Position numbers and translations under genes: made by a program. This document shows, in pieces, positions 13,515 to 56,737 of a stretch of 64,000 nucleotides of DNA (the first letter of the stretch is position 1; the number at the start of each line of letters is the position of its first letter). The stretch lies in NCBI GenBank assembly GCA_040388575.1, contig JAZKBO010000004.1, positions 5,400-69,399 of the forward strand, read 5' to 3'. A model generated the notes under the pieces. The model was not told where the DNA came from. It ran no database searches and saw only the letters and a list, made by a program, of their open reading frames with translations. The DNA comes from Patescibacteria group bacterium (GTDB lineage: Bacteria; Patescibacteriota; Minisyncoccia; Phycocordibacterales; UBA9973).

Positions 13515-14201
13515 TTACGTAGAGCTTTTTTCAATTATATCTTCCAGCTCGGCTGCAGCCTTTTTAATATATTTTTCTTGTAACTGATTTATTTTTTCTT
13601 TCATGAGTTCAAATTTTTCTGGATCCTGATCTTTCAAATTATTTATATCTTTATAAATCAAGTCGTGTTCAATCTCCGCCCAAGCATGATGGAGTATTGA
13701 AGTAAGTTGAATTTCACTTTTTAATCCACGTAGATGCTTGTACTCGCTTAATTTGAGGCGCTTAGGTCCGAAAGACATCACTATGTGAGTGGCACGGTAA
13801 CCATTTTGCTTATTCCTCTCCTCTACTTTCATAAACCCACCAATTTCATTTTTGATTCTTTTAGTAAATCTATCTTTATCTCTTTCCGTGTAGAAAATTA
13901 TTCTTATACCAACCAGGTCCTCAACTTCCTCGACAGAGTGATACAAAATACCCTCCCTTTTTTTACGTAGGAGCTTCTCCTCCAGCCTCTCTGGGGTTTT
14001 GGTCCTCGAAACAATTTGGTACTTGTAGCCCTCTTCTTCTAGCAACGCCTCCAGGGCTTTATGTGCAGCTACCCTGAAATCTTCATAATTTGGGCGCTTG
14101 TTTTTGTATTCCGTTAATATGTCGCCAATATAACTCTGCTCACCTTTATGCCTTTTAGGATTCAAAAAAGCTATGATTTTATCCATCAACTGCGCATTCA
14201 T
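13515..14201 (-). CDS. RelA/SpoT-domain small alarmone synthetase ((p)ppGpp/(p)ppApp synthetase-like)
   Basis: DLVGIRIIFY, GYRATHIVM and EIQLTSILHHAWAEIEHD are the synthetase-domain motifs of RelA/SpoT nucleotidyltransferases. The protein is single-domain with no hydrolase or TGS domain. Confidence 0.7.
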   Translation of the reverse strand: MNAQLMDKIIAFLNPKRHKGEQSYIGDILTEYKNKRPNYEDFRVAAHKALEALLEEEGYKYQIVSRTKTPERLEEKLLRKKREGILYHSVEEVEDLVGIRIIFYTERDKDRFTKRIKNEIGGFMKVEERNKQNGYRATHIVMSFGPKRLKLSEYKHLRGLKSEIQLTSILHHAWAEIEHDLIYKDINNLKDQDPEKFELMKEKINQLQEKYIKKAAAELEDIIEKSST

Positions 14202-47249: not shown

Positions 47250-49220
47250 GTGTTATATTTAAAGGTAATGTCGCAATCGAAGAAAAAAGGGGGCACAAAC
47301 CGCCTGGAAGGCACTATCTCCATCTCTGCCAAAGGCATAGGCTATGTGGCTGTAGGGGAAACTAAAAATAAAGGCCAGGATCCGGAAATAGATTCTAAGC
47401 ATTTAAACACTGCCCTTCATGGCGACAGGGTGGAGATTGTACTCCATCCTAAGAGCAAGAATCGCCAGACTGCGGAAGTTACCCGCGTAATAACCCGAGC
47501 CAAAACTGGCTTCATGGGCGTCATAGAGGAACAGAATGGCTTATTTTTTTTAAAGCCAGATGATCCTAAAATGTATACGGATATCATCGTTCCTCAAAGT
47601 ATGTTAAATGGCGCTAAGGCTGGGGAGAAAGTTTTCGTCAAAATCGTTTCTTGGAATGACCCTCGTAAAGAACCAGAAGGTAAAGTAGAAAAGGTCTTAG
47701 GTAAGCCAGGTGATAATAATGTCGAGATGGAGGCCATCGCGATGGAAAAAGGCTTCGCTGCAAGTTTACCTACAGATGTTGAAGCCGAAGCGGAAAGGAT
47801 AAAGCACGCGGGCATAAAAGAATCTGATTATCAAGATCGTCGGGATTTCCGCAACACTCTCACCTTCACTATCGACCCGGACACTGCTAAGGACTTCGAT
47901 GATGCAATATCATTCAAAGAAATAGATAAAGATAAATACGAGGTGGGTATTCATATAGCTGATGTATCACATTATGTGCAAATCGGCAGCGCAATAGATA
48001 AGGAGGCCAGGGAGCGCGGCACATCGGTATACCTCGTGGACCGTACCATCCCGATGTTGCCAGAAGTACTTTCTAATGACTTGTGCTCCTTGGTGCCGAA
48101 TCAAGATCGCCTGACCATGAGTGCTGTTTTTGTTATAGATAAAAATGCCAAGGTTGCTGGTGAATGGTTCGGCCGCACAGTTATCCATTCCCAAAGGCGC
48201 TTCACTTATGAAGAGGCCGAGGAATCGATAAAGAAATCCTCTGCACCACTACATAAGGAGCTTGCAATATTGAATGGTTTAGCAAAAAAGTTAACCAAGG
48301 AGAGGTTCAGTAAGGGCGCAATATCACTCGATCAAGAGGAAGTTAAGTTTGTCCTAGATGATAAAGGTGTGCCGATCAAAGTAATTAAAAAGGAGCGCGG
48401 CGACTCTAATAGATTGATCGAGGAATTTATGCTCTTGGCAAATAAAAAAGTTGCCCAAATTATTTCCTCATCTAATTCTAAGACCAAGGGTCAAAAAGAC
48501 CACAGTATTTCCATTTACCGCGTGCATGACCTGCCGAGTAAGGAAAAGATGGCAGATCTCGCTTTCTTCCTGCGCAGCCTCGGGCACAAAATAACATTAC
48601 GTGACGGGCTGATACCAACTTTTGAAATTAATAAGTTACTGGAGAGCTTGAAAGGTAAAAGTGAGGCCGACACCGTGCATCGCGCTGTCATCCGCTCCAT
48701 GGCCAAGGCAATTTACTCTACCAAAAATATCGGCCACTATGGCCTTGCATTTGAATACTATACTCACTTCACCTCCCCGATCCGCCGCTACCCAGACATC
48801 ATTGTGCATCGCCTACTTGAGGACCACCTAGAAGGTATTAAAATAAATCCCGATAAGCTCCATGTATTTGAAGACATGTCGAGGATTGCTTCCGAGCAAG
48901 AAAAGAGAGCCTCGGATGCGGAACGAGCATCGATTAAGTACAAACAAGTGGAGTACATGTCACTCCGGATCGGCAAAGCTTTCGATGGCGTCATCAGCGG
49001 CATAACCGAGTGGGGTATGTATGTGGAAGAGCTTGAAACAAAGTGTGAGGGTTTGGTGCGCGTGCGTGACATGGCGGATGATTACTATATATACAATGAA
49101 AAAAAGTTGGAATTAGTCGGCCAGAAGAAGAAAAAGCGCTACCGCCTCGGGGATCGTGTTAAAATAAAAGTTAAAGCGGTTGATTTGGAGCGCAAAACAA
49201 TTGATTATATTCTAGTATGA
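47250..49220 (+). CDS. rnr: ribonuclease R (RNB family 3'-5' exoribonuclease)
   Basis: Cold-shock/OB N-terminus. RNB catalytic DFDDAISF...HIADVSHYV. C-terminal S1 domain (GVISGITEWGMYVEL). Confidence 0.8.
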   Translation: MLYLKVMSQSKKKGGTNRLEGTISISAKGIGYVAVGETKNKGQDPEIDSKHLNTALHGDRVEIVLHPKSKNRQTAEVTRVITRAKTGFMGVIEEQNGLFFLKPDDPKMYTDIIVPQSMLNGAKAGEKVFVKIVSWNDPRKEPEGKVEKVLGKPGDNNVEMEAIAMEKGFAASLPTDVEAEAERIKHAGIKESDYQDRRDFRNTLTFTIDPDTAKDFDDAISFKEIDKDKYEVGIHIADVSHYVQIGSAIDKEARERGTSVYLVDRTIPMLPEVLSNDLCSLVPNQDRLTMSAVFVIDKNAKVAGEWFGRTVIHSQRRFTYEEAEESIKKSSAPLHKELAILNGLAKKLTKERFSKGAISLDQEEVKFVLDDKGVPIKVIKKERGDSNRLIEEFMLLANKKVAQIISSSNSKTKGQKDHSISIYRVHDLPSKEKMADLAFFLRSLGHKITLRDGLIPTFEINKLLESLKGKSEADTVHRAVIRSMAKAIYSTKNIGHYGLAFEYYTHFTSPIRRYPDIIVHRLLEDHLEGIKINPDKLHVFEDMSRIASEQEKRASDAERASIKYKQVEYMSLRIGKAFDGVISGITEWGMYVEELETKCEGLVRVRDMADDYYIYNEKKLELVGQKKKKRYRLGDRVKIKVKAVDLERKTIDYILV

Positions 49221-51118
49221 ATACGAAACAGGGAAAAATAAGATGGTTATTGCTTTTAACCCTGGCAATGGTGGCCTTTTTGGGCACGACTTCATATTAT
49301 TTAAAGAATCTTATATATAAAGAAGCGAACCAATTAGCGGATGTTTCCGCCGCCCCGGTTCTAGCCAGTACTGACACGGGGCCTAAATATTTCTATTTCA
49401 ATAAAGAAGCGGCACTACTCCCGAAGGTTTCTGCCACTGCATTCCTGGTGGGTGACCTTGATACGGGTGAAGTAATTATGGAGAAAAATCAAGACACCCA
49501 GCTTCCTATTGCTTCAGTCTCAAAATTGATGACGGCGTTAGTGGCCAATGAGCTGGGAGGAGAAAAAAATGAAGAGGGAGAGGCCCAAGTCAGTAAAAAA
49601 GCCTTGGCTACCTACGGTGGCAACGGTGCCTTCCACTTGGGAGAGAAAATTAAAGTCAACGAGCTTTTCTATCCGCTCCTCTTAGAATCCAGTAACGACG
49701 CCGCCGAGATCCTGGCGGAATATTTCGGACGCGATACTTTCCTTTCTAAAATGAATCAGGAAGCGCAAATCCTGCAGATGTCCTCCACCACCTATGATGA
49801 CCCGAGCGGCCTCTCCCCTAATAACAAGTCTACCGTATCGGACCTTTTTAAACTCGCAGGATTTTTAAGTAAACAAAAGCAAAACATATTGGACATCACT
49901 ACGAAACGTAGCTACACCAATGACAAACATAACTGGTCCAGCAACAACCAATTCCTGCGCGAGGCTGGTTATGAAGGTGGCAAAAGTGGCTTCACTGACC
50001 CTGCCAAACAAACTGTTATTTCGATCTTCTCTGTACCGCTGCCGCCAGGCGGTGAACGTAATATTGCCATCACCCTACTAGGAAGCAATGATAGACATAA
50101 GGATGTAGATAATATTGTCAGCTATCTAAAGAAAAATATATATTATGGTGGTGAAGCGGATGCTAACATCGCTTGGGTCAAACAAAAAGACGGCATCCCA
50201 GAAATTAAGGATCCGGACTTTGTTACCCTCTCCTTCGTCGGTGATATTATGGTGGACCGCGGGGTAAAAAATTCCGTGATGAATAACTTCGGCGGCGACT
50301 ACTCCGCATTATTTGATAAAATGGGAACCTTGAAAGATTCAGATGTGGTCTTTGCAAATTTGGAAGGCACCGCATCGGACAAGGGGGAAGATCAAGGAAA
50401 TTTGTATTCCTTCCAAATGGACCCGACGATTATACCAGCACTACGTGGTGCGGGAGTAAGCATCCTCTCTGTGGCTAACAATCACGTTGGCGACTTTGGA
50501 CGGGAGTCATACATTGATACACTTTCGCGCTTGCGGGAAAATGAAATTACTTATACTGGTGGCGGTATGAATAGTGAGGAAGCCGAGCAGCCAGCGGTAA
50601 TGGAAAAATATGGCATCAAGTTAGGATTTCTTGGCTTCTCGGACGTTGGCCCAGACTGGATGAATGCGAAGGAGGACACTGCTGGATTATTACTAGCTAG
50701 TAACCCACGCTTTGATCAAATAATTAAAAATGCTGCCAGCCAGGTGGATGACCTTATCGTCTCCTTCCACTGGGGTGTTGAATATCAAACGCAGCATAAT
50801 GCTAGGCAGGAAGAATTAGCGCACAAAGCCATAGATGATGGCGCAAAAATAATTATCGGCACCCACCCACATGTGATGGAAGATACTGAAACTTATAAGA
50901 ATGGTTACATCGCTTATTCACTTGGAAACTTTATATTTGACCAGATATTTAGTGCAGAAACTATGAAAGGCATGCTGCTTAACATTAAGCTCGGCCACGA
51001 TGGCAGCCTAGCAGTGACAAAAAATACTGTCAGGTTAAACGACGCCTTCCAGCCGGACACTGTAGTGGCTGGAAAGGAAGAAAAGATTAAGTTTGATAGT
51101 GTATTGATTCCAAATTAA
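49217..51118 (+). CDS. fusion protein: D-alanyl-D-alanine carboxypeptidase (S11, penicillin-binding) + CapA/PGA_cap metallophosphatase-fold domain
   Basis: N-terminal half has SxxK (ASVSKLM), SxN (SSNDAA) and KSG (KSGFTD). C-terminal half has LSFVGDIMVDRGV, ANNHVGDFG, FHWGVEY and GTHPHV, as in the CapA poly-gamma-glutamate family. Confidence 0.6.
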   Translation: MNTKQGKIRWLLLLTLAMVAFLGTTSYYLKNLIYKEANQLADVSAAPVLASTDTGPKYFYFNKEAALLPKVSATAFLVGDLDTGEVIMEKNQDTQLPIASVSKLMTALVANELGGEKNEEGEAQVSKKALATYGGNGAFHLGEKIKVNELFYPLLLESSNDAAEILAEYFGRDTFLSKMNQEAQILQMSSTTYDDPSGLSPNNKSTVSDLFKLAGFLSKQKQNILDITTKRSYTNDKHNWSSNNQFLREAGYEGGKSGFTDPAKQTVISIFSVPLPPGGERNIAITLLGSNDRHKDVDNIVSYLKKNIYYGGEADANIAWVKQKDGIPEIKDPDFVTLSFVGDIMVDRGVKNSVMNNFGGDYSALFDKMGTLKDSDVVFANLEGTASDKGEDQGNLYSFQMDPTIIPALRGAGVSILSVANNHVGDFGRESYIDTLSRLRENEITYTGGGMNSEEAEQPAVMEKYGIKLGFLGFSDVGPDWMNAKEDTAGLLLASNPRFDQIIKNAASQVDDLIVSFHWGVEYQTQHNARQEELAHKAIDDGAKIIIGTHPHVMEDTETYKNGYIAYSLGNFIFDQIFSAETMKGMLLNIKLGHDGSLAVTKNTVRLNDAFQPDTVVAGKEEKIKFDSVLIPN

Positions 51119-51131
51119 AAAGTGATATGCT
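51104..51131 (+). promoter_or_regulatory. sigma70 promoter TTGATT-N16-TGaTATGCT at the head of G+C-rich cassette D
   Basis: TTGATTccaaattaaaaagtgaTATGCT. It shares the aaaagtgaTAT spacer/extended -10 with the C1/C2 promoters. It overlaps the stop of the dac/capA gene. Confidence 0.45.
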
Positions 51132-51175
51132 CTAACTGAATACCTGCCACTCTAGTTCACCATCAAGGAGGTCCC

Positions 51176-51316
51176 TTGGCGAACGGACAGAATACCAAAC
51201 TCGTGCCCATGATCTTGTTCATCCTCGTAATCTTGGCGGTGCTCACTATCGTCGATAGTAAGAAGGTGACGACGCCTTACGGCTTCACCTTCCCCTGCCA
51301 GGGCTGCACGCACTAG
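51176..51316 (+). CDS. putative small membrane peptide (46 aa, TTG start) in G+C-rich cassette D
   Basis: SD AAGGAGG lies 4 nt before TTG. The peptide has one TM helix (MILFILVILAVLTIV) and a C-terminal CQGC. An alternative, minus-strand ORF 51152..51472 is considered less likely. Confidence 0.3.
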   Translation: MANGQNTKLVPMILFILVILAVLTIVDSKKVTTPYGFTFPCQGCTH

Positions 51317-51323
51317 GTGCACG

Positions 51324-51440
51324 ATGAAGGAAGAAGACAGCCTGTGGGCGTGGGCCAAACTGATTGGTCTACTGTTATTAGTTGAGGGCCTCCCGCTCGG
51401 TGCCCTCGCCTTCCTCATCCGGTGGAAGTTCGGAAAGTAA
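51324..51440 (+). CDS. putative small membrane peptide (38 aa) in cassette D
   Basis: MKEEDSLWAWAKLIGLLLLVEGLPLGALAFLIRWKFGK, with one TM helix and a weak SD. Confidence 0.25.
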   Translation: MKEEDSLWAWAKLIGLLLLVEGLPLGALAFLIRWKFGK

Positions 51441-51535
51441 CGCATGCCGGCGGCCCCTTGGGTCGCCGGCAAAATCGTTTGTGGGTGTATAATTAGTGAG
51501 TATGCTGTTCCTGGGCGCTTAAGACTGGAGGGTCT

Positions 51536-51997
51536 ATGAATCGTCTGGCTTTCGTAGTCGTCGTAGCGGTGGTGTTTCTTGCTGGCGTAGCAGCCGGCAA
51601 AGCAACTTCACCTGTCGAGAATGATCTCGCACTTCGCCAGGCAGAGAGTCGCGAGGCCATGCTGATGCTCGCCTTCGTTGAGCTCAAGGTGGAGAACATG
51701 GCGATGGAGGAGCAGCTCCAATCCTGGAAAGATGCCGCTGCTCCGCTTAACACCATGTATTTCACGGAGGCAGCCTACGTCGACATGGGTCTCCACGAAT
51801 ATTTCGAGAAGTTCTATCCGGACATGGTGATGAATGCAGTGAAGCTGCGCAAACTCACTCATCCATGTCAGGTTGACCCTCGACGTTGGGGTTGCTCCTG
51901 GTACGGAAAGAATTACGTACCGGTTTACGTGGAAATCCAGCGGCCATTCTCAATATCCATGAGCCTAGCTGGGCACATGGACTCCCCGAGGAAGTGA
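51536..51997 (+). CDS. G+C-rich secreted/membrane-anchored hypothetical protein, 153 aa (cassette D)
   Basis: SD GGAGGG lies 4 nt before ATG. Signal/TM segment MNRLAFVVVVAVVFLAGVAAG. Cys pair CQVDPRRWGC. A GCGGCCGG...CCGGCCGC hairpin lies downstream. Confidence 0.5.
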   Translation: MNRLAFVVVVAVVFLAGVAAGKATSPVENDLALRQAESREAMLMLAFVELKVENMAMEEQLQSWKDAAAPLNTMYFTEAAYVDMGLHEYFEKFYPDMVMNAVKLRKLTHPCQVDPRRWGCSWYGKNYVPVYVEIQRPFSISMSLAGHMDSPRK

Positions 51998-52081
51998 ATA
52001 AATTGAGTTTCGGGGGACATCCCCAGAACACGCGGCCGGCGATCTCTCGATCCCCGGCCGCAAACTCATTTAAATTAAAAT

Positions 52082-54223
52082 TTATTTAGCTATTGCCACC
52101 GCTTCGTCAAATTTAACGGAGAGGAGTTTGGAGGCGGAGTCCGAGCCAATGGTAACACCATAGAGCATGCCAGCGCGCGACATCGTCTCGCGGTTGTGGG
52201 TCACAACGATAAGCTGGGAATGTTTGGAGAGTTTTTCCAGCATGTCTCCATACTTCCTAGAGTTAGCTTCATCCAGCGCCGCATCTGTTTCATCCAGCAC
52301 CAGGAATGGTGGCGGATTAACTTGTGACATAGCAAAAAGGAGTGCAATGGATGTCAGCGAGCGTTCCCCACCAGAGAGCGCCTGCAATTCTTTTACTTTT
52401 TTATGTGGCAATGACACATCTATCTCAATGCCTTGCTCGGGTATTTCATCTTCCTCATCTATCACTACCTCTTCTTCATAATCCTCGTCTTCACCTTTCT
52501 CAGCCTTTTTCTTCCTCTTTTCTGGTATCACTATGGAAAGCGACCCCGAGCCACCACCGAACATAAGAGTGAAAAATTCTTTAAATTCAACATTGATTTT
52601 CTTTATACCTTCCTTGAATTCCACATCGATTTTTTCTTTTAGGTCCACCATAATACCCTGGAGCGACTTTATACTCTCAGCTAAGTCCGCCATCTCCTTC
52701 TCTAGGAATTGGTCCCGCTGTGATACTTCCTCAAATTCTTTCATTATTTCCGTACCGCCGCCAAGGCCAGCGTCCTCTAATTTTATTTTTATCCTTTCAA
52801 TTTTCTTCCGCAATTCCTCTTGGGCTTGCGCATCGATGCCACCTTCTATTTGGAAGTTTTTATAGGAAAGTATTTCCATGCCGATCAAGGCCTGACCCTC
52901 CTTAATTTCATTTTCTAACATACCCTCCCCTTTGAAAATATTTGCGAGTTTAATGTTTATGAGCTCAAGCGCGGATGAAAGTTCCTGGTGTTTAACTTTA
53001 TGCGTAAACTTCTCGCGCTCCATGTCCCGCAGGGATTCCATTTCCTTATTTATTGCTTGCTTTAGTCCTTCAATAGATTGTGCATGAGTTTGTTCGTCCT
53101 TTTTCAACTTCTCAATCTCGGCCACTGTACTTACCTGGGAGGCTTTAAGTTCCGCCAATTCCCCTTCCTCATTTTCCCTCTTTTGTATTTGCTCGGCGTG
53201 CATCTCACGGATTTCATTACCGCATAGTGGACAACGGCCAGCTATTTTAACCTTATTCTCTTTAGCCTCGAGCATGCCTTCAATACGGCCGAGTTTGCGC
53301 TCTAGCTCGTTCTTAAGGTTCCTTATTTCATTTATTTTTTCCTCTACCGCCCGCAACTCCTCAATCTTTTTATTGCCAGCTTTGGAAGTTTCCTCGGGAA
53401 TATCGGAAATTTTATGGAGGACAGTCTGGAGTTCGCCTTGAATTTTACTTTTCTCTTTTGAAAGAGAATTCTTTTCATTCTCTAGGAAAACACTTTCCTT
53501 TTTTAAATATTCTCGGTACAGGGTTGCAAGTTCACCTTGCATCTCCTTAGCTTTTTCGAATTTTTCAACCTGCTTCTTGAGGAAGTTCAAATGCGGGGCA
53601 CTCTCCCGACGGAGCATGGTGACCTCCTTCATATTCTCCTCAGTGCGTTCTAGTTTGCGCTCGCTTTCACGGATTTTGTATTGGTAAATTTTAAGGCCGA
53701 GTGCGTCCTCCACCATTTCCTTCCTATCCTTCGGGCTCGCATTTAAAATTCTGTCCGCTTCACCCTGGGAGATTATGTGGTGTCCAGAGGAGCCAATATT
53801 GACTGATGCGAGTAAATTATTGATGTCTTTTAAACGCACCTCAGAACCATTTAAAATATATTTATTAAGGCCATCGGTATAAACCTCACGCCCGATGGAG
53901 ATAGTATCGTAATTTAAATTCATATTCTCTCCCACATCATTTGCGAGTTTGAAAATTTTATCTTTATTATCAAAATATATGGTAACTGACGCTCGGTTAC
54001 CCTTAGGCAATTGCTTGGAACCTTTAAAGATCATGTCCGCGCCGGCCTTACCGCGCATGGACTTCATGGACTGCTCACCGAGGACGTAGCGAATGGCTTC
54101 CACCACGTTGGATTTACCGGAACCATTAGGGCCGACGACTGAAGTAATCGGGCTCGAAAACTCTAAAACTGTTTTTTTAGCAAAAGATTTAAAGCCATTT
54201 AATTCTAAACTCCTAAGTCGCAT
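52082..54223 (-). CDS. smc: short SMC-family chromosome condensation ATPase with central CPxC zinc-hook-like motif
   Basis: N-terminal head MRLRSLELNGFKSFAKKTVLEFSSPITSVVGPNGSGKSNVVEAIRYVLGEQS. C-terminal head LSGGERSLTSIALLFAMSQVNPPPFLVLDETDAALDEAN. It is 713 aa with E/K-rich coiled coils. AGRCPLCGNEI sits at mid-length. Lies next to rnc as in rnc-smc synteny. Confidence 0.75.
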   Translation of the reverse strand: MRLRSLELNGFKSFAKKTVLEFSSPITSVVGPNGSGKSNVVEAIRYVLGEQSMKSMRGKAGADMIFKGSKQLPKGNRASVTIYFDNKDKIFKLANDVGENMNLNYDTISIGREVYTDGLNKYILNGSEVRLKDINNLLASVNIGSSGHHIISQGEADRILNASPKDRKEMVEDALGLKIYQYKIRESERKLERTEENMKEVTMLRRESAPHLNFLKKQVEKFEKAKEMQGELATLYREYLKKESVFLENEKNSLSKEKSKIQGELQTVLHKISDIPEETSKAGNKKIEELRAVEEKINEIRNLKNELERKLGRIEGMLEAKENKVKIAGRCPLCGNEIREMHAEQIQKRENEEGELAELKASQVSTVAEIEKLKKDEQTHAQSIEGLKQAINKEMESLRDMEREKFTHKVKHQELSSALELINIKLANIFKGEGMLENEIKEGQALIGMEILSYKNFQIEGGIDAQAQEELRKKIERIKIKLEDAGLGGGTEIMKEFEEVSQRDQFLEKEMADLAESIKSLQGIMVDLKEKIDVEFKEGIKKINVEFKEFFTLMFGGGSGSLSIVIPEKRKKKAEKGEDEDYEEEVVIDEEDEIPEQGIEIDVSLPHKKVKELQALSGGERSLTSIALLFAMSQVNPPPFLVLDETDAALDEANSRKYGDMLEKLSKHSQLIVVTHNRETMSRAGMLYGVTIGSDSASKLLSVKFDEAVAIAK

Positions 54224-54238
54224 TTCTTTATTCTGTAT

Positions 54239-54934
54239 TTACTCCAGCCAATTTTTTACTTTTAATGCCGCCTCTGCCGCCTTCTGCTCGGCTTCCTGCT
54301 TACTTTTACCTTTACCTTCGGCGATCAAAACCCCGCCGAAATTTATGCCCACAGTAAAATGTTTGTCATGGTCTGGGCCTGACTCACTAAGGACCCGGTA
54401 AGCCGGCGTAACCGATGCAAACTCCTGTGCCTTTTCCTGCACCAAACTCTTAGCATCCCGCCATAATTTATTTTTAACTATTTCATCAGTTTTAGGTAGA
54501 AGGGATTCCGACACAAATTTATCAGTCACTTCGTAGCCTTGATCTAAATAAACTGCGCCCACATAGGCCTCATAAGTATTAGCGAGTATATATTGCCGCG
54601 CCTTGCCGTTATCCTTAGATTCCCCTTTCGAGAGTAATAGATAGTCATTCATACCCACAGCGGAGGCAATTTCGGAAATAATTACGGCATTCACTAATGC
54701 CGAGCGCACTGCAGTTAACTCCCCCTCATTATAAGCGGGATATTTTTTGTATAAATAGTCCGTGACAATAAGTTCAAGCACTGCATCACCGAGGAATTCC
54801 AGGCGCTCGTTGTGTGAGAGTCCTGCGGAAGGATTTTCATTAATGTAAGAACGGTGAATAAATGCCTGCTTGAGCAAATTCTTTTCTTTGAAAACTATCT
54901 TTGTCTTTTTCTCAAAATCTGCAAAATTAATCAT
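54239..54934 (-). CDS. rnc: ribonuclease III
   Basis: ERLEFLGDAVLELIVTDYL signature and a C-terminal dsRBD. Confidence 0.85.
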   Translation of the reverse strand: MINFADFEKKTKIVFKEKNLLKQAFIHRSYINENPSAGLSHNERLEFLGDAVLELIVTDYLYKKYPAYNEGELTAVRSALVNAVIISEIASAVGMNDYLLLSKGESKDNGKARQYILANTYEAYVGAVYLDQGYEVTDKFVSESLLPKTDEIVKNKLWRDAKSLVQEKAQEFASVTPAYRVLSESGPDHDKHFTVGINFGGVLIAEGKGKSKQEAEQKAAEAALKVKNWLE

Positions 54935-54947
54935 ATATATAAATTAA

Positions 54948-55811
54948 TTATCTAATACCTGTATCAATATTAAAATTCAACGTGGTTGTTTGACCACTTT
55001 TTACAGTTACTGTGCCCTTATTTTCACTGAGTTCATCAACCATCATTCCGCTTGCTTTTATCGTATACGTGCCTGGGGCCAATGTAAATTGATAATTGCC
55101 ATTGGCATCTAAGTGCTGGCTGGAAACCAAAACTCCGGATTGTGTAAACACTCCAACTTGACGTGCCATATTTGTCTCTGGTGATGGAGTGCACGGGTGT
55201 CCAATTTGCTCCACCGGACAGACGGGCCCAATATCCACATGGCCTTTGAGGGTGCCAGTGGAAGCTTGGACCGTATTCGTAAATTTAAAAGTGGAAAGAA
55301 TTTGTTGTTCTTGATTTAAGTCACCCCAACAATTTAAAGGATCTCGATAGGAAATCGCTATTGTGTCCTTTCCGTCTTTTGTTGAAGTTTGGAAATTTGA
55401 TGTAGCACACTTAGGTGTGCCGTCTTCTGGATCATAAAATCCATACCAAGTTACGCCTGCAATATTATTCGAAGTCGGAGTAATAGATTTATCATAAGGA
55501 TTGGGATCAATGTTTGTCTTGGTCCAACCTTTCATAATCGTAATTATTGGACCTTCCCCGATTGTCAGCTGAACAGTCGGGTATTTCGTCCCATTGTACA
55601 AAAATGAACCCGTATCTTTAGGGGTTAGTGTGGTTAACTGGTACGGAGTTTTTATCTCAAATCCATACTGATCATTGGTATATGTTTTCCAATTTGCAGT
55701 TGATTCTTGTTTTGCGGGAGCTTGAACTGAATTTTTGTTTTTTTGCAAAAGAAAAATACCACCAAAAAGTACTCCGACCACAACTATACTAATAATTATT
55801 TGCTTAATCAT
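54948..55811 (-). CDS. secreted hypothetical protein with C-terminal Ig-like/carboxypeptidase-regulatory-like beta-sandwich
   Basis: N-terminal TM/signal segment. C-terminal GTLKGHV...APGTYTIKASG...VKSGQTTTLNFNI pattern. Confidence 0.4.
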   Translation of the reverse strand: MIKQIIISIVVVGVLFGGIFLLQKNKNSVQAPAKQESTANWKTYTNDQYGFEIKTPYQLTTLTPKDTGSFLYNGTKYPTVQLTIGEGPIITIMKGWTKTNIDPNPYDKSITPTSNNIAGVTWYGFYDPEDGTPKCATSNFQTSTKDGKDTIAISYRDPLNCWGDLNQEQQILSTFKFTNTVQASTGTLKGHVDIGPVCPVEQIGHPCTPSPETNMARQVGVFTQSGVLVSSQHLDANGNYQFTLAPGTYTIKASGMMVDELSENKGTVTVKSGQTTTLNFNIDTGIR

Positions 55812-56737
55812 TTCTTTGTAATTATTTCTATAGCCTTAGTAATCAGCGGAATTATGTCGTTGTAAATATGGAGGTCGGGAATTTCTTTCAATTTAAACCA
55901 ACGCGCTTCGTCTAGGCCCCCTGTAACTTCAAGGGTCAAGGGTTCATATTTGGATTCGGCTAAAAAGTAGATAACTTTCTTTAAAATTTTACCCTTCTCT
56001 GGGTGCGAGGCTACATACTCATTCTCCCCCAATTTTTCAGTAATATTCACATCTATACCTATCTCCTCCTTGATCTTTTTAGCAGTAGCTTCCTTTTCAT
56101 CCCCTGCGCTTTCAATGCCGCCCTTGGTGAGTGTCCAGTAGCCGAAAACGTCGTGCACCATGGCAAAGTAAATATCTTTGCCTTCCTTGGCATACACCAC
56201 AGCCCCACCCTTGCGCTCCACGGGTAATTTGCTCCTGTCTATTGGGGTGTCGTTTTTATGAATTTCCTTTTTCTTTTTACTGACTTCATCCTTACCTGGC
56301 TCGCCTATTTCCTTATACACCGCCCCGAGCACACCGTTGACGAATTTACCGGAATTTTCACCGCCGAAAGTCTTCGCGAGTTCTATTGCTTCATTGATGG
56401 CCACCTTCGGTGGCACTTGACCACGATCGCCAAAGAGGAGCTCGGTGAGCCCAATGCGTAAAATATTTCTATCAATGATGGAAATCTTATCTATCGGCCA
56501 GTCAGGCGCAGCTTTTTCGATGATCTCATCGATCACCGTTTGTTTTACAATTATTTGGTCGGTAAGCATGAAGACGAAGTTGTCCTCCTCCATGCCGGGA
56601 GCGAATTCCTTGAGGTTGCGATCTAAAATTTCTTTTACTTTCTCGGGAGTGTGGTCGGCAGGTTTTGATTGAGACAAGAAGTCCCACTCAAAAAGGGTCT
56701 GAAGTACTATTGATCTGGAAAGATGCCTATTTGCCAT
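55808..56737 (-). CDS. nusB: NusB antitermination factor fused to a C-terminal NUDIX hydrolase domain
   Basis: NusB N-terminus: MANRHLSRSIVLQTLFEWDF... and KFVNGVLGAV. The C-terminus carries a Nudix box: TKGGIESAGDEKEATAKKIKEEIGID. Confidence 0.65.
   Translation of the reverse strand: MANRHLSRSIVLQTLFEWDFLSQSKPADHTPEKVKEILDRNLKEFAPGMEEDNFVFMLTDQIIVKQTVIDEIIEKAAPDWPIDKISIIDRNILRIGLTELLFGDRGQVPPKVAINEAIELAKTFGGENSGKFVNGVLGAVYKEIGEPGKDEVSKKKKEIHKNDTPIDRSKLPVERKGGAVVYAKEGKDIYFAMVHDVFGYWTLTKGGIESAGDEKEATAKKIKEEIGIDVNITEKLGENEYVASHPEKGKILKKVIYFLAESKYEPLTLEVTGGLDEARWFKLKEIPDLHIYNDIIPLITKAIEIITKK

What the first reader, a model, noticed from the sequence alone, without database searches (positions are those of the whole stretch)
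52082..54223. 713-aa SMC orthologue whose hinge appears replaced by a Rad50-like CPxC zinc hook
Both head halves are unmistakably SMC (GFKSFA...GPNGSGKSN...; LSGGERSLTSIALLFA...LDETDAALD) and the gene sits next to rnc as SMC normally does. Yet the protein is about 450 aa shorter than canonical SMC. At mid-length, where the hinge should be, there is only AGRCPLCGNEI embedded in a coiled coil, which is the Rad50/SbcC zinc-hook motif. A condensin-type ATPase dimerising through a Zn hook rather than a hinge would be an architecturally distinct minimal SMC.
Basis: partly seen in the sequence, partly recalled or inferred. Interest (0 to 1): 0.6.

Follow-up and report, generated by a model that had tools for sequence, protein, structure and literature searches.

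The report
Hingeless bacterial SMC with zinc hook
An ultra-small (CPR/Patescibacteria) bacterium encodes a half-length version of the chromosome-organising SMC ATPase in which the usual "hinge" that joins the two copies is missing and a Rad50-type two-cysteine "zinc hook" sits at the tip of the arm instead, a natural counterpart of a chimera so far only built in the laboratory.

Summary
Window 52082..54223(-) encodes a 713-aa protein with SMC-type ATPase head halves, directly downstream of rnc. It has no detectable SMC hinge and exactly two cysteines, C331 and C334, in G-R-C-P-L-C-G at the tip of an AlphaFold-predicted antiparallel coiled coil.

It descends from bacterial Smc: it scores 503 bits on the Smc model against at most 81 on Rad50 models, occupies the rnc-smc-...-rpsP-KH-trmD slot and branches within Smc. 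It is collinear with canonical residues ~1-320 and ~850-end, so the hinge and distal arm halves (~530 aa) are gone. The remaining ~165-aa arm matches a published minor mode of natural arm lengths.

The apex's best PDB match is the P. furiosus Rad50 zinc-hook crystal structure. C-P-x-C-G is invariant in 120/120 close relatives.

The main correction: the hook did not replace the hinge directly. A large Patescibacteria clade already has short hingeless SMCs, mostly with a small helix-turn-helix apex and often no cysteine. A CxxC apex appears in at least two separate lineages nested among them.

Zinc binding, hook-mediated dimerisation and ScpAB partners are not shown. No published description was found. 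I rate it a new variant of a known kind.

The parts
52082..54223 (-). smc gene: 713-aa hingeless, half-arm SMC with an apex CPxC hook
   Evidence: Intact ORF. SMC_N 7e-60 and no SMC_hinge. TIGR02168 SMC_prok_B 503 bits. Best PDB hits are Smc heads at 2e-75.
53714..54223 (-). N-terminal head half (aa 1-170) with Walker A GPNGSGKS (54110-54133), R57 (54053-54055) and Q-loop SQGE (53759-53770)
   Evidence: Motifs read directly from the translation. These positions are invariant in alignments A1 and A2. Aligns to the B. subtilis Smc head.
53243..53692 (-). N-terminal arm helix (aa 178-327, break at 274-280), including the conserved GRIEG motif (aa 312-316, 53276-53290)
   Evidence: AF2 helices 178-273 and 281-327 with pLDDT about 83-91. 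Collinear with canonical SMC residues up to about 320. G312, R313, E315 and G316 are invariant in the hook clade, and G316 is nearly invariant across the wider hingeless alignment A2.
53219..53239 (-). Apex hook G329-R-C331-P-L-C334-G335 (CPLC = 53222-53233): proposed ligands of a zinc ion shared between two protomers
   Evidence: These are the only two Cys in the protein. C, P, C and G are invariant in 120/120 relatives, with entropy 0.27 against 1.04 for the arm. Best PDB hits are the Rad50 zinc-hook structures 1L8D (3.4e-4) and 6ZFF. The best Pfam hit is Rad50_zn_hook, E=0.0017, 18.6 bits, below the 24.3 cut-off. It lies in the apex loop 328-342 of the AF2 model.
52694..53197 (-). C-terminal arm helix (aa 343 to about 510; breaks at 457-464 and 486-489, plausibly the head-proximal joint)
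   Evidence: AF2 helices 343-456, 465-485 and 490-555. Aligns to canonical SMC residues from about 854 onward.
52085..52693 (-). C-terminal head half (aa 511-713) with signature LSGGE (52364-52378), Walker B FLVLDE (52289-52306), D-loop (52271-52288), H-loop (52193-52204) and a low-complexity basic/acidic insert at aa 568-597 (52433-52522)
   Evidence: Motifs read from the translation. Aligns to the Smc C-terminal head, including the C-terminal strands LYGVT...SKLLSVKF. The insert has pLDDT below 50.
54239..54934 (-). rnc (RNase III), immediately upstream and co-directional: the marker of the orthologous smc locus
   Evidence: Pfam Ribonuclease_3 plus dsrm. rnc is directly upstream of smc in 18 of 22 Patescibacteria short-SMC loci and in 36 of 57 non-CPR loci.

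Best explanation
This is the chromosomal Smc orthologue of a Nomurabacteria-like Patescibacteria (CPR) bacterium, in a minimal architecture. It has a canonical SMC ABC-ATPase head and one antiparallel coiled-coil arm of about 165 residues (about 22-24 nm, roughly half the usual length). At the arm tip a 15-residue loop carries C331-P-L-C334 in place of the roughly 170-aa hinge. Proposed mechanism: two protomers are held together constitutively by one zinc ion bound tetrahedrally by the four cysteines (two from each chain), as in Rad50/SbcC. The heads engage and disengage with ATP, so the dimer (presumably closed by a kleisin) forms the usual SMC ring or rod that loads onto and moves along DNA. 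What is shown: the domain content, the absence of a hinge, the apex position and strong conservation of CPxCG, sequence similarity of the apex to the Rad50 hook, descent from Smc, and the fact that the hook occupies the place of a small helical apex module in an already hingeless clade. What is inferred: zinc binding, hook-mediated dimerisation, kleisin partnership and a role in chromosome organisation.
For: SMC identity: TIGR02168 scores 503 bits, while Rad50 models score at most 81, RecN 60 and ASRP 50. The best PDB sequence hits are Smc heads at 2e-75, with Rad50 at 1e-11. In Foldseek the top hit is Smc head plus coiled coil 5XEI at 4e-22, and Rad50 first appears at rank 14. Orthology: rpmF-nusB-rnc-smc-...-rpsP-KH-trmD synteny is shared with canonical loci, and the short clade branches within Smc and is monophyletic in 96% of bootstraps. 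No hinge: Pfam finds none here or in eight other short forms, while the positive controls find it, and hhalign of the apex against canonical hinges gives 26% probability. Hook: see the parts list. Two cysteines cannot complete a zinc site within one chain, and no other ligand is conserved nearby (H342 entropy is 2.4), so a 2+2 site between chains is the simplest reading. Plausibility: an engineered B. subtilis Smc with the P. furiosus Rad50 hook in place of the hinge supports normal growth (PMC5344682), and the hook and hinge are interchangeable in the other direction too (PMC6969161). The arm of about 165 aa matches the minor natural mode at 163 aa and equals 344 minus two 91-aa periods. Modularity: hook forms are 689-726 aa and hookless forms 732-782 aa. 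The hookless sister P0121 (69% identical) has a loop-helix-turn-helix-loop at the same place.
Against: The Pfam Rad50_zn_hook score is below its gathering threshold (18.6 against 24.3 bits). The 1L8D E-value (3e-4) comes from a short, partly coiled-coil query. Most orthologues in the same hingeless clade do without any cysteine, so the apex can evidently work, or dimerise, by another means and the hook is not essential to this architecture. ScpA/ScpB were not found in the window or in about 350 kb of related Patescibacteria loci, although that sample is far too small and too syntenic to show absence. AF2 confidence in the heads (pLDDT about 40-65) and at the hook loop (about 61-70) is modest.
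Confidence: 0.7

Rival explanations
1. The protein is the hingeless Smc orthologue, but the CPxC is not an inter-chain zinc hook. The arm tip would dimerise through helical contacts, or not at all, with dimerisation left to the heads and kleisin. The two cysteines would instead serve as a local structural or redox element (an intrachain disulfide or a metal site shared with another protein) or as a docking site for a partner.
For: 143 of 150 deeper representatives, and 119 of 119 relatives of the sister P0121, have no apex CxxC, and 83 of those 119 have no cysteine at all, so this architecture does not need a hook. The Pfam hook score is below threshold. No metal or dimer evidence could be obtained.
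Against: Hook forms lack the roughly 40-60-aa helix-turn-helix module that hookless forms carry, so something must replace its function. CPxCG is as conserved as the ATPase head. The motif and its flanks align without gaps to the P. furiosus Rad50 hook, G+CP+CG.E+...H.E. A CxxC apex recurs in a second lineage at the same position, which argues for a shared selected function at the tip. CxxC at the apex of an antiparallel coiled coil in an SMC-superfamily ATPase has so far always been read as a zinc hook (Rad50/SbcC, ASRP/ClsN, LmuB).
Confidence: 0.15
2. The hook works as in some Rad50 models, between complexes rather than within one. Each SMC pair would be closed at the heads, and hooks would tether two complexes (or two DNA-bound assemblies) together, giving a bridging rather than a ring or loop-extruding machine.
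For: Rad50 hooks have been proposed to act both within and between complexes (reviewed in PMC7752040, listed). Arms of about 22 nm are short for a DNA-entrapping ring. Nothing here distinguishes the two topologies.
Against: High-speed AFM indicates that the Rad50 hook is a constitutive dimerisation module within the complex and is interchangeable with an SMC hinge (PMC6969161). B. subtilis Smc with a hook functions as normal Smc. The hookless sisters keep the same arm length, which implies the same overall geometry.
Confidence: 0.08
3. It is really a Rad50/SbcC-type DNA-repair ATPase, or a defence-system SMC-like protein such as Lamassu LmuB, that was mis-scored as Smc.
For: It has an apex CxxC. 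It gives weak hits to Rad50 models (41-81 bits) and to PADLOC mad3 (195 bits) and LmuB (117 bits). The field currently sorts the superfamily into 'hinge SMCs' and 'CxxC SMCs' (PMC12663957).
Against: The Smc model scores 503 bits over the heads and both proximal arm halves. The arms are collinear with canonical Smc arms. The gene occupies the canonical rnc-smc slot among housekeeping genes, with no Mre11/SbcD, LmuA or LmuC nearby. It nests inside Smc in the head tree. Foldseek ranks Smc, condensin and cohesin heads above Rad50.
Confidence: 0.03

Closest known systems
Bacterial Smc of the Smc-ScpAB complex (e.g. B. subtilis Smc; TIGR02168)
   Same: It has the same ATPase head with all motifs, homologous head-proximal arm halves, the same genomic slot (rnc-smc ... 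rpsP-KH-trmD), and it branches within this family.
   Different: It has no hinge domain and no distal arm halves (about 530 aa missing), an arm of about 165 aa instead of about 344, and a CPxC loop at the tip. It scores below the curated equivalog cut-off (503 against 567 bits). ScpA/ScpB were not located.
Engineered B. subtilis Smc(Zh) chimera: Smc with the P. furiosus Rad50 zinc hook in place of the hinge (Buermann et al. 2017, PMC5344682)
   Same: The design is the same: Smc heads and arms joined by a Rad50-type hook. The natural hook aligns best to that same P. furiosus hook.
   Different: This one is natural, evolved in a lineage that had already lost the hinge, and has half-length arms. 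Its function has not been tested.
Rad50/SbcC zinc hook (PF04423; structures 1L8D, 6ZFF)
   Same: Both have CxxC at the apex of an antiparallel coiled coil in an SMC-superfamily ATPase, with flanks that match (G+CP+CG.E+...H.E).
   Different: The head and arms here are Smc-type, not Rad50-type. There is no Mre11/SbcD neighbour. The Pfam score is below threshold.
Archaea-specific SMC-related proteins (ASRP: ClsN/coalescin, Sph1/2) (PMC9389158)
   Same: They are short SMC-superfamily proteins of about 600 aa with a zinc-hook motif at mid-length and a role (ClsN) in chromosome organisation rather than repair.
   Different: They form a separate archaeal family that coexists with or replaces SMC. 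NF045487 scores only 50 bits here against a cut-off of 300. The protein described here is a bacterial Smc orthologue.
'Hinge-less' SMC clade from ocean metagenomes (Sussfeld et al. 2025, PMC12153180)
   Same: They are SMC-proper heads with a coiled coil and no hinge domain, found by metagenomics.
   Different: That clade branches within Actinobacteria and is stated to lack the CXXC motif. The Patescibacteria clade and its hook-bearing sub-lineages are not described there.
Lamassu LmuB (PMC12663957)
   Same: It is an SMC-like ATPase in which the CxxC hook is evolutionarily labile, with zero, one or two copies across the phylogeny. This parallels the gain and absence of the hook seen here.
   Different: LmuB descends from SbcC and works with LmuA/LmuC in phage defence. 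PADLOC LmuB scores 117 bits here against 503 for Smc, and no Lamassu genes are nearby.

Membership tests
Bacterial Smc (condensin-type SMC, TIGR02168 / Pfam SMC_N + SMC_hinge) | ABC-type head split between the N and C termini, with Walker A, Q-loop, signature LSGG, Walker B, D-loop and H-loop | tested here: met
   All motifs are present and invariant in relatives. SMC_N scores 7e-60.
Bacterial Smc (condensin-type SMC, TIGR02168 / Pfam SMC_N + SMC_hinge) | Best profile, sequence and fold match is to Smc rather than Rad50, RecN, MukB or ASRP | tested here: met
   503 bits against at most 81. PDB Smc heads at 2e-75 against Rad50 at 1e-11. Foldseek 5XEI at 4e-22.
Bacterial Smc (condensin-type SMC, TIGR02168 / Pfam SMC_N + SMC_hinge) | Reaches the curated NCBIfam equivalog cut-off | tested here: not met
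   503.3 bits is below the 567.35 cut-off. The shortfall fits the missing hinge and distal arms.
Bacterial Smc (condensin-type SMC, TIGR02168 / Pfam SMC_N + SMC_hinge) | Central hinge dimerisation domain (PF06470) | tested here: not met
   No hit at E<=1. Positive controls score about 1e-24. Profile-profile comparison of the clade's apex with canonical hinges gives 26% probability.
Bacterial Smc (condensin-type SMC, TIGR02168 / Pfam SMC_N + SMC_hinge) | Long intramolecular antiparallel coiled-coil arm | tested here: met
   AF2 predicts a hairpin of helices 178-327 and 343 to about 555. The arm is about 165 aa, half the canonical length.
Bacterial Smc (condensin-type SMC, TIGR02168 / Pfam SMC_N + SMC_hinge) | Orthologous genomic position and phylogenetic placement | tested here: met
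   rnc-smc-...-rpsP-KH-trmD synteny. Nested in Smc in the head tree.
Bacterial Smc (condensin-type SMC, TIGR02168 / Pfam SMC_N + SMC_hinge) | Kleisin ScpA and kite ScpB partners encoded in the genome | not testable with these tools
   None were found in the 64-kb window or in about 350 kb of related loci, using home-made HMMs (positive controls L035 and L071 were found) and Pfam. Whole genomes could not be read.
Rad50/SbcC | CxxC zinc hook at the coiled-coil apex | tested here: inconclusive
   The motif and its position are met and 1L8D/6ZFF are the best PDB hits. PF04423 scores 18.6 bits, below the 24.3 cut-off. Zinc binding was not tested.
Rad50/SbcC | Rad50-type head reaching the family cut-offs | tested here: not met
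   The best Rad50 model scores 81 bits against a cut-off of 1000. TIGR00618 sbcC scores 40 against 478.
Rad50/SbcC | Adjacent or partner Mre11/SbcD nuclease | tested here: not met
   The neighbours are nusB-NUDIX, a CarboxypepD_reg-like protein, rnc, a PBP and RNase R.
Archaea-specific SMC-related proteins (ASRP/ClsN) | Match to NF045487; archaeal distribution | tested here: not met
   50 bits against a cut-off of 300. The host is a Patescibacteria bacterium.
RecN | Match to the RecN models | tested here: not met
   60.5 bits against a cut-off of 418.
Lamassu LmuB / other defence SMC-like ATPases | Best match to a defence model, with the cognate effector genes adjacent | tested here: not met
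   mad3 scores 195 and LmuB 117 bits, far below the Smc score, and the context is housekeeping genes.

The most novel reading that the evidence does not exclude
A whole radiation of ultra-small bacteria (Paceibacteria/Parcubacteria-type Patescibacteria) runs its chromosome on half-length SMCs that have lost the hinge altogether. In these proteins the arm-tip dimerisation module is an interchangeable cassette, either a small helix-turn-helix or a zinc hook, and the hook has been invented or captured at least twice. If so, nature has repeated the Smc(Zh) experiment. Neither the hinge fold nor its DNA-binding surface would then be needed for the core SMC mechanism. The textbook split of the superfamily into 'hinge SMCs' (chromosome organisation) and 'CxxC SMCs' (repair and defence) would not be a clean phylogenetic boundary. 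These roughly 700-aa proteins would be the smallest natural full SMC motors available for structural and single-molecule work.
Probability: 0.5. Interest if true: 0.8.

Novelty: new variant of a known kind. Interest (0 to 1): 0.66.

Why it matters
How SMC complexes convert ATP hydrolysis at the heads into DNA loop extrusion or entrapment is still debated, including whether the hinge and full-length arms take an active part. Laboratory chimeras showed that B. subtilis Smc tolerates a Rad50 hook and certain discrete arm lengths (PMC5344682).

This finding offers natural, evolutionarily stable examples: an Smc orthologue with a hook, an arm shortened by almost exactly two coiled-coil superhelical periods, and close sister proteins that carry a different tip module.

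That gives a ready comparative system for testing what the arm tip must do: hook against helix-turn-helix, at 69% identity otherwise. It also gives a compact protein (713 aa, two cysteines) well suited to cryo-EM, crosslinking and single-molecule assays.

It blurs the 'hinge SMC versus CxxC SMC' classification used in current literature (PMC12663957). It adds a chromosome-biology trait to the list of features that set Patescibacteria apart.

Tried and rejected
No dimer model was therefore possible.

(2) ScpA/ScpB search. I built HMMs from PDB-verified sequences and searched all ORFs of the window and 84 loci. The positive controls were found (L035, L071), but nothing in the window or the Patescibacteria loci. 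A Pfam scan of ten unannotated window ORFs also found none. This is inconclusive, because only a small and syntenic fraction of any genome was visible.

(3) Conserved-neighbour clustering around short smc genes gave only housekeeping synteny, with no candidate kleisin.

(4) The idea that the hookless apex is a degenerate hinge was rejected: hhalign gives 26% probability, the aligned part is mostly downstream coiled coil, and AF2 shows only two short helices.

(5) A Rad50/SbcC or defence-system identity was rejected on scores, context and phylogeny.

(6) A single origin of all hook-bearing forms was rejected: 0 of 100 bootstraps in two data sets. Strict monophyly of the second hook lineage is also unsupported (0 of 100), so the number of origins or losses there is unresolved.

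(7) Seven literature searches found no description of a natural bacterial Smc with a zinc hook or of the Patescibacteria hingeless clade. The library lacks most subscription-journal papers, so prior description cannot be excluded.

(8) An Rfam scan of the GC-rich island downstream of smc found nothing.
Full report
OBSERVATION. The ORF at 52082..54223 on the minus strand is intact and encodes 713 aa, beginning MRLRSLELNGFKSF, 15 nt downstream of rnc. Every SMC ATPase motif is present: Walker A GPNGSGKS (aa 31-38), R57, Q-loop SQGE (152-155), signature LSGGE (616-620), Walker B FLVLDE (640-645), D-loop TDAALD and H-loop VTHN. Pfam reports SMC_N (7e-60, spanning aa 3-695) but no SMC_hinge even at E<=1. 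The same scan detects SMC_hinge at about 1e-24 in a 976-aa and a 1036-aa SMC used as controls. The protein has exactly two cysteines, C331 and C334, in G-R-C-P-L-C-G. AlphaFold2, run with 61 homologues, gives poorly resolved heads but confident arms. Helices 178-273 and 281-327 run out, a loop at 328-342 carries the CPLC, and helices 343-456, 465-485 and 490-555 run back.

WHAT IT DESCENDS FROM. NCBIfam's bacterial Smc model scores 503 bits. Rad50 models score at most 81, RecN 60, the archaeal ASRP model 50 and sbcC 40. The best sequence matches among solved structures are Smc heads (2e-75), with Rad50 at 1e-11. Foldseek on the model ranks an Smc head with coiled coil and joint first (5XEI, 4e-22), followed by condensin and cohesin heads, and Rad50 first appears at rank 14. 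PADLOC defence models score far lower (mad3 195 bits, LmuB 117 bits) and the neighbours are housekeeping genes.

Gene order is rpmF-nusB(NUDIX)-rnc-smc ... rpsP-KH-trmD in the window and across Patescibacteria loci. rnc is directly upstream of smc in 18 of 22 such loci. In non-CPR loci fetched from the GTDB genome collection, rnc lies directly upstream of smc in 36 of 57, and rpsP-KH-trmD lies downstream in several. The gene therefore occupies the orthologous smc slot.

BLASTP shows collinearity of residues 1 to about 320 with canonical residues 1 to about 320, and of residues 345-708 with canonical residues about 854-1182. The arms are thus Smc arms, and what is missing is the hinge plus the distal half of both arm helices, about 530 aa.

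ARM LENGTH. The remaining arm is about 165 aa. Buermann et al. 2017 found that natural prokaryotic Smc arm lengths are multimodal (238, 341 and 515 aa, with possible minor modes at 163 and 423 aa). They also found that engineered B. subtilis arms work only in discrete length windows with a period of about 91 aa, close to the coiled-coil superhelical period (PMC5344682). The wild-type length of 344 aa minus two such periods is 162 aa. The short arm therefore sits on a permitted length. This is an inference from matching numbers, not a functional test.

THE HOOK. In the 120 closest database relatives (68-100% pairwise identity; Nomurabacteria, Paceibacterota and Parcubacteria MAGs from NCBI, JGI, ENA and Logan), C-P-x-C is present in 120 of 120: CPLC 93, CPTC 24, CPMC 2, CPVC 1. 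C331, P332, C334 and G335 are invariant. Column entropy over residues 329-335 is 0.27 bits, compared with 1.04 for the arms and 0.34 for the ATPase head. Residues 336 and 339-343, just downstream, are hypervariable.

A 74-aa apex fragment searched against all PDB sequences finds the two P. furiosus Rad50 zinc-hook structures as its best hits: 1L8D at 3.4e-4 and 6ZFF at 1.7e-3. The alignment is ungapped across the hook, aGrCPlCGnEireMHaEqi against kGkCPvCGrEltdeHrEel. The next hits are unrelated zinc ribbons at E of 0.2 or worse. Pfam's best hit for the fragment is Rad50_zn_hook, at E=0.0017 and 18.6 bits, below the 24.3-bit threshold.

Two cysteines cannot complete a tetrahedral zinc site within one chain, and no other potential ligand is conserved nearby. 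A site shared between two chains, as in Rad50, is therefore the simplest reading. This is an inference: no dimer model could be made and no metal data exist.

THE WIDER PICTURE, AND A CORRECTION. A search of 1.84 billion cluster representatives returned 150 best hits at 42-69% identity, and all of them are short (mostly about 690-780 aa, plus a few shorter sequences, at least two of them fragments). Only 7 of these carry an apex CxxC. The rest have none, many have no cysteine at all, and they have about 40-65 extra residues at the apex. The Patescibacteria loci from the GTDB scan whose smc ORF is complete (726-798 aa) are likewise hookless. None of eight short forms tested has a Pfam hinge. 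A profile of 101 hookless apices shows no hinge remnant against a profile of 39 canonical hinge regions (hhalign probability 26%).

AlphaFold2 of the hookless protein closest to the window's (P0121, 69% identical) shows that its apex is a floppy loop, two short helices (337-356 and 360-374) and another loop. So hinge loss and arm halving are old features of a large Patescibacteria clade. That clade is monophyletic in 96% of NJ bootstraps on head domains.

The window's hook clade (G1) is nested among hookless Nomurabacteria-like sequences. A clade holding G1 and hookless relatives, but none of the other hook-bearers, is recovered in 100 of 100 bootstraps in two data sets. In G1, a 15-residue CPxC loop stands where the roughly 60-aa helix-turn-helix module stands in its sisters.

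A second and much more diverse hook lineage (G2, including Vogelbacteria) was found. 41 of the 120 best hits to P0179, including all of the top 38, carry apex C-x-x-C-[GA]-Q. Hook forms are 689-726 aa (one is 771) and hookless forms are 732-782 aa. G1 and G2 together are never monophyletic (0 of 100 bootstraps). G2 forms two large blocks interrupted by a few hookless sequences, so its own history of one gain with reversions, or several gains, is unresolved. Basal members of the hingeless clade are hookless. The parsimonious reading is therefore a hookless ancestor and at least two acquisitions of a CxxC apex. The NJ trees are approximate, and a maximum-likelihood analysis is needed.

MECHANISM PROPOSED. 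Two chains are joined permanently at the arm tips by a Zn(Cys)4 hook, and the roughly 22-nm arms align. The heads bind and hydrolyse ATP in the normal SMC cycle, and a kleisin presumably bridges the heads. The C-terminal head strands that bind ScpA's winged helix in B. subtilis (LYGVT...SK..SVK) are conserved, which is suggestive only. That such a design can work is shown by the engineered B. subtilis Smc(Zh), which supports normal growth, and by the reciprocal interchangeability reported for Rad50 (PMC6969161).

Shown: architecture, conservation, descent and modular replacement of the apex. Inferred: zinc binding, dimerisation through the hook, kleisin partnership and a chromosome-organising role. 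I put about 0.7 on this explanation. The rivals, listed separately, are that the CPxC has another role while the tip dimerises otherwise or not at all, that the hook bridges separate complexes, and that the protein is really a repair or defence ATPase.

COMPARISON WITH WHAT IS KNOWN. The closest relative by descent is bacterial Smc. However, the protein fails that family's architectural definition (no hinge) and the curated equivalog cut-off (503 against 567 bits). I therefore call it an Smc orthologue with a non-canonical architecture rather than a canonical member.

It works like, but is not a member of, Rad50/SbcC: hook yes, head and partner no. Archaeal ASRP/ClsN proteins are the nearest natural analogue, being short hook-bearing proteins that organise chromosomes, but they are a separate family. 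A 'hinge-less' SMC clade has been reported from ocean metagenomes, but it branches within Actinobacteria and explicitly lacks CXXC (PMC12153180). In Lamassu LmuB the hook is similarly labile (PMC12663957). The same paper states the current view that the superfamily splits into hinge SMCs and CxxC SMCs, a boundary that this protein crosses.

Seven full-text searches found no description of a natural bacterial Smc with a zinc hook, or of the Patescibacteria hingeless clade. The library lacks most subscription-journal papers, so this is absence of evidence.

LIMITS. ScpA/ScpB could not be assessed, because only 64 kb of this genome and syntenic flanks of related genomes were readable. Whether a second smc or an sbcCD exists in these genomes is unknown. 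Head confidence in both AF2 models is low because the alignments are shallow. Taxon labels come from MAG records and are coarse.

VERDICT. The feature is real and well conserved. Novelty: a new variant of a known kind. Interest is about 0.66. A specialist in SMC mechanism would be surprised to see a natural Smc(Zh), and the hook/hookless sister pairs make the long-standing question of what the arm tip must do directly testable.

Noticed in passing
window 51119-52081 (GC island about 51200-52000): The 963-bp gap between the PBP gene and the smc stop codon contains an island of about 0.8 kb with GC 0.51-0.57, against about 0.43 for the window. It holds a 153-aa ORF (51536-51997, plus strand) with an N-terminal membrane helix and no Pfam family above threshold (only a sub-threshold DUF7267 hit), and there is no Rfam hit. 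The island is absent from the syntenic locus L002, where the PBP gene follows smc after 24 nt. L004 has a different insert at this place (a 182-aa ORF, a Y1 transposase and a pilin-like gene). The 3' flank of smc looks like an insertion hotspot.
   Followed up: partly
window 52433-52522 (SMC aa 568-597): The C-terminal head half carries a basic-then-acidic low-complexity insert (EKRKKKAEKGEDEDYEEEVVIDEEDEIPEQ), just upstream of the segment that aligns to the canonical C-terminal head. It is variable in the clade (consensus x's), has AF2 pLDDT below 50, and has no counterpart in the B. subtilis alignment. Its function is unknown.
   Followed up: no
window 53276-53290 (SMC aa 312-316) and equivalent positions in P0121-P0270: A G-R-[IL]-E-G motif with two glycines sits inside the N-terminal arm helix about 15 residues before the apex. 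It is invariant in the hook clade, and it or a close variant is present in most hookless and second-lineage hook forms. It may mark a conserved feature of the arm tip shared by both apex types.
   Followed up: no
window 55808-56737 (minus strand); L002-L033: NusB is fused to a NUDIX hydrolase domain (309 aa). This fusion, or NusB alone in some loci, lies upstream of rnc-smc in 17 Patescibacteria loci.
   Followed up: no
L033:10001-12433, L046:10001-12775, L017:76-2388: Basal members of the hingeless clade are longer (810, 924 and 770 aa). The two that were scanned (L033, L046) have no Pfam hinge. They may be intermediates in arm shortening or carry other apex modules. Separately, some non-CPR bacteria (L041, L043, L049, L053 at 976-1004 aa and L028 at 1036 aa) have shortened arms; the two that were scanned (L043, L028) keep the hinge.
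   Followed up: partly
P0179, P0394-P0428, P0134, P0148, P0164, P0197, P0205: A second, deeper hook-bearing lineage (Vogelbacteria and relatives) has apex C-x-x-C-[GA]-Q and a longer, probably non-helical linker between GR[IL]EG and the first Cys. A few hookless sequences (P0213, P0187, P0219, P0217, P0243) fall among these sequences in the NJ tree, so the hook may also have been lost or swapped back.
   Followed up: partly
window 49217-51118 (plus strand) and 13515-14201 (minus strand): A 633-aa protein appears to fuse a D-Ala-D-Ala carboxypeptidase (Peptidase_S11) with a PGA_cap domain; the domains are taken from its close homologue in locus L002. A 228-aa stand-alone RelA_SpoT-domain protein, a small alarmone synthetase type, is also encoded in the window.
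   Followed up: no
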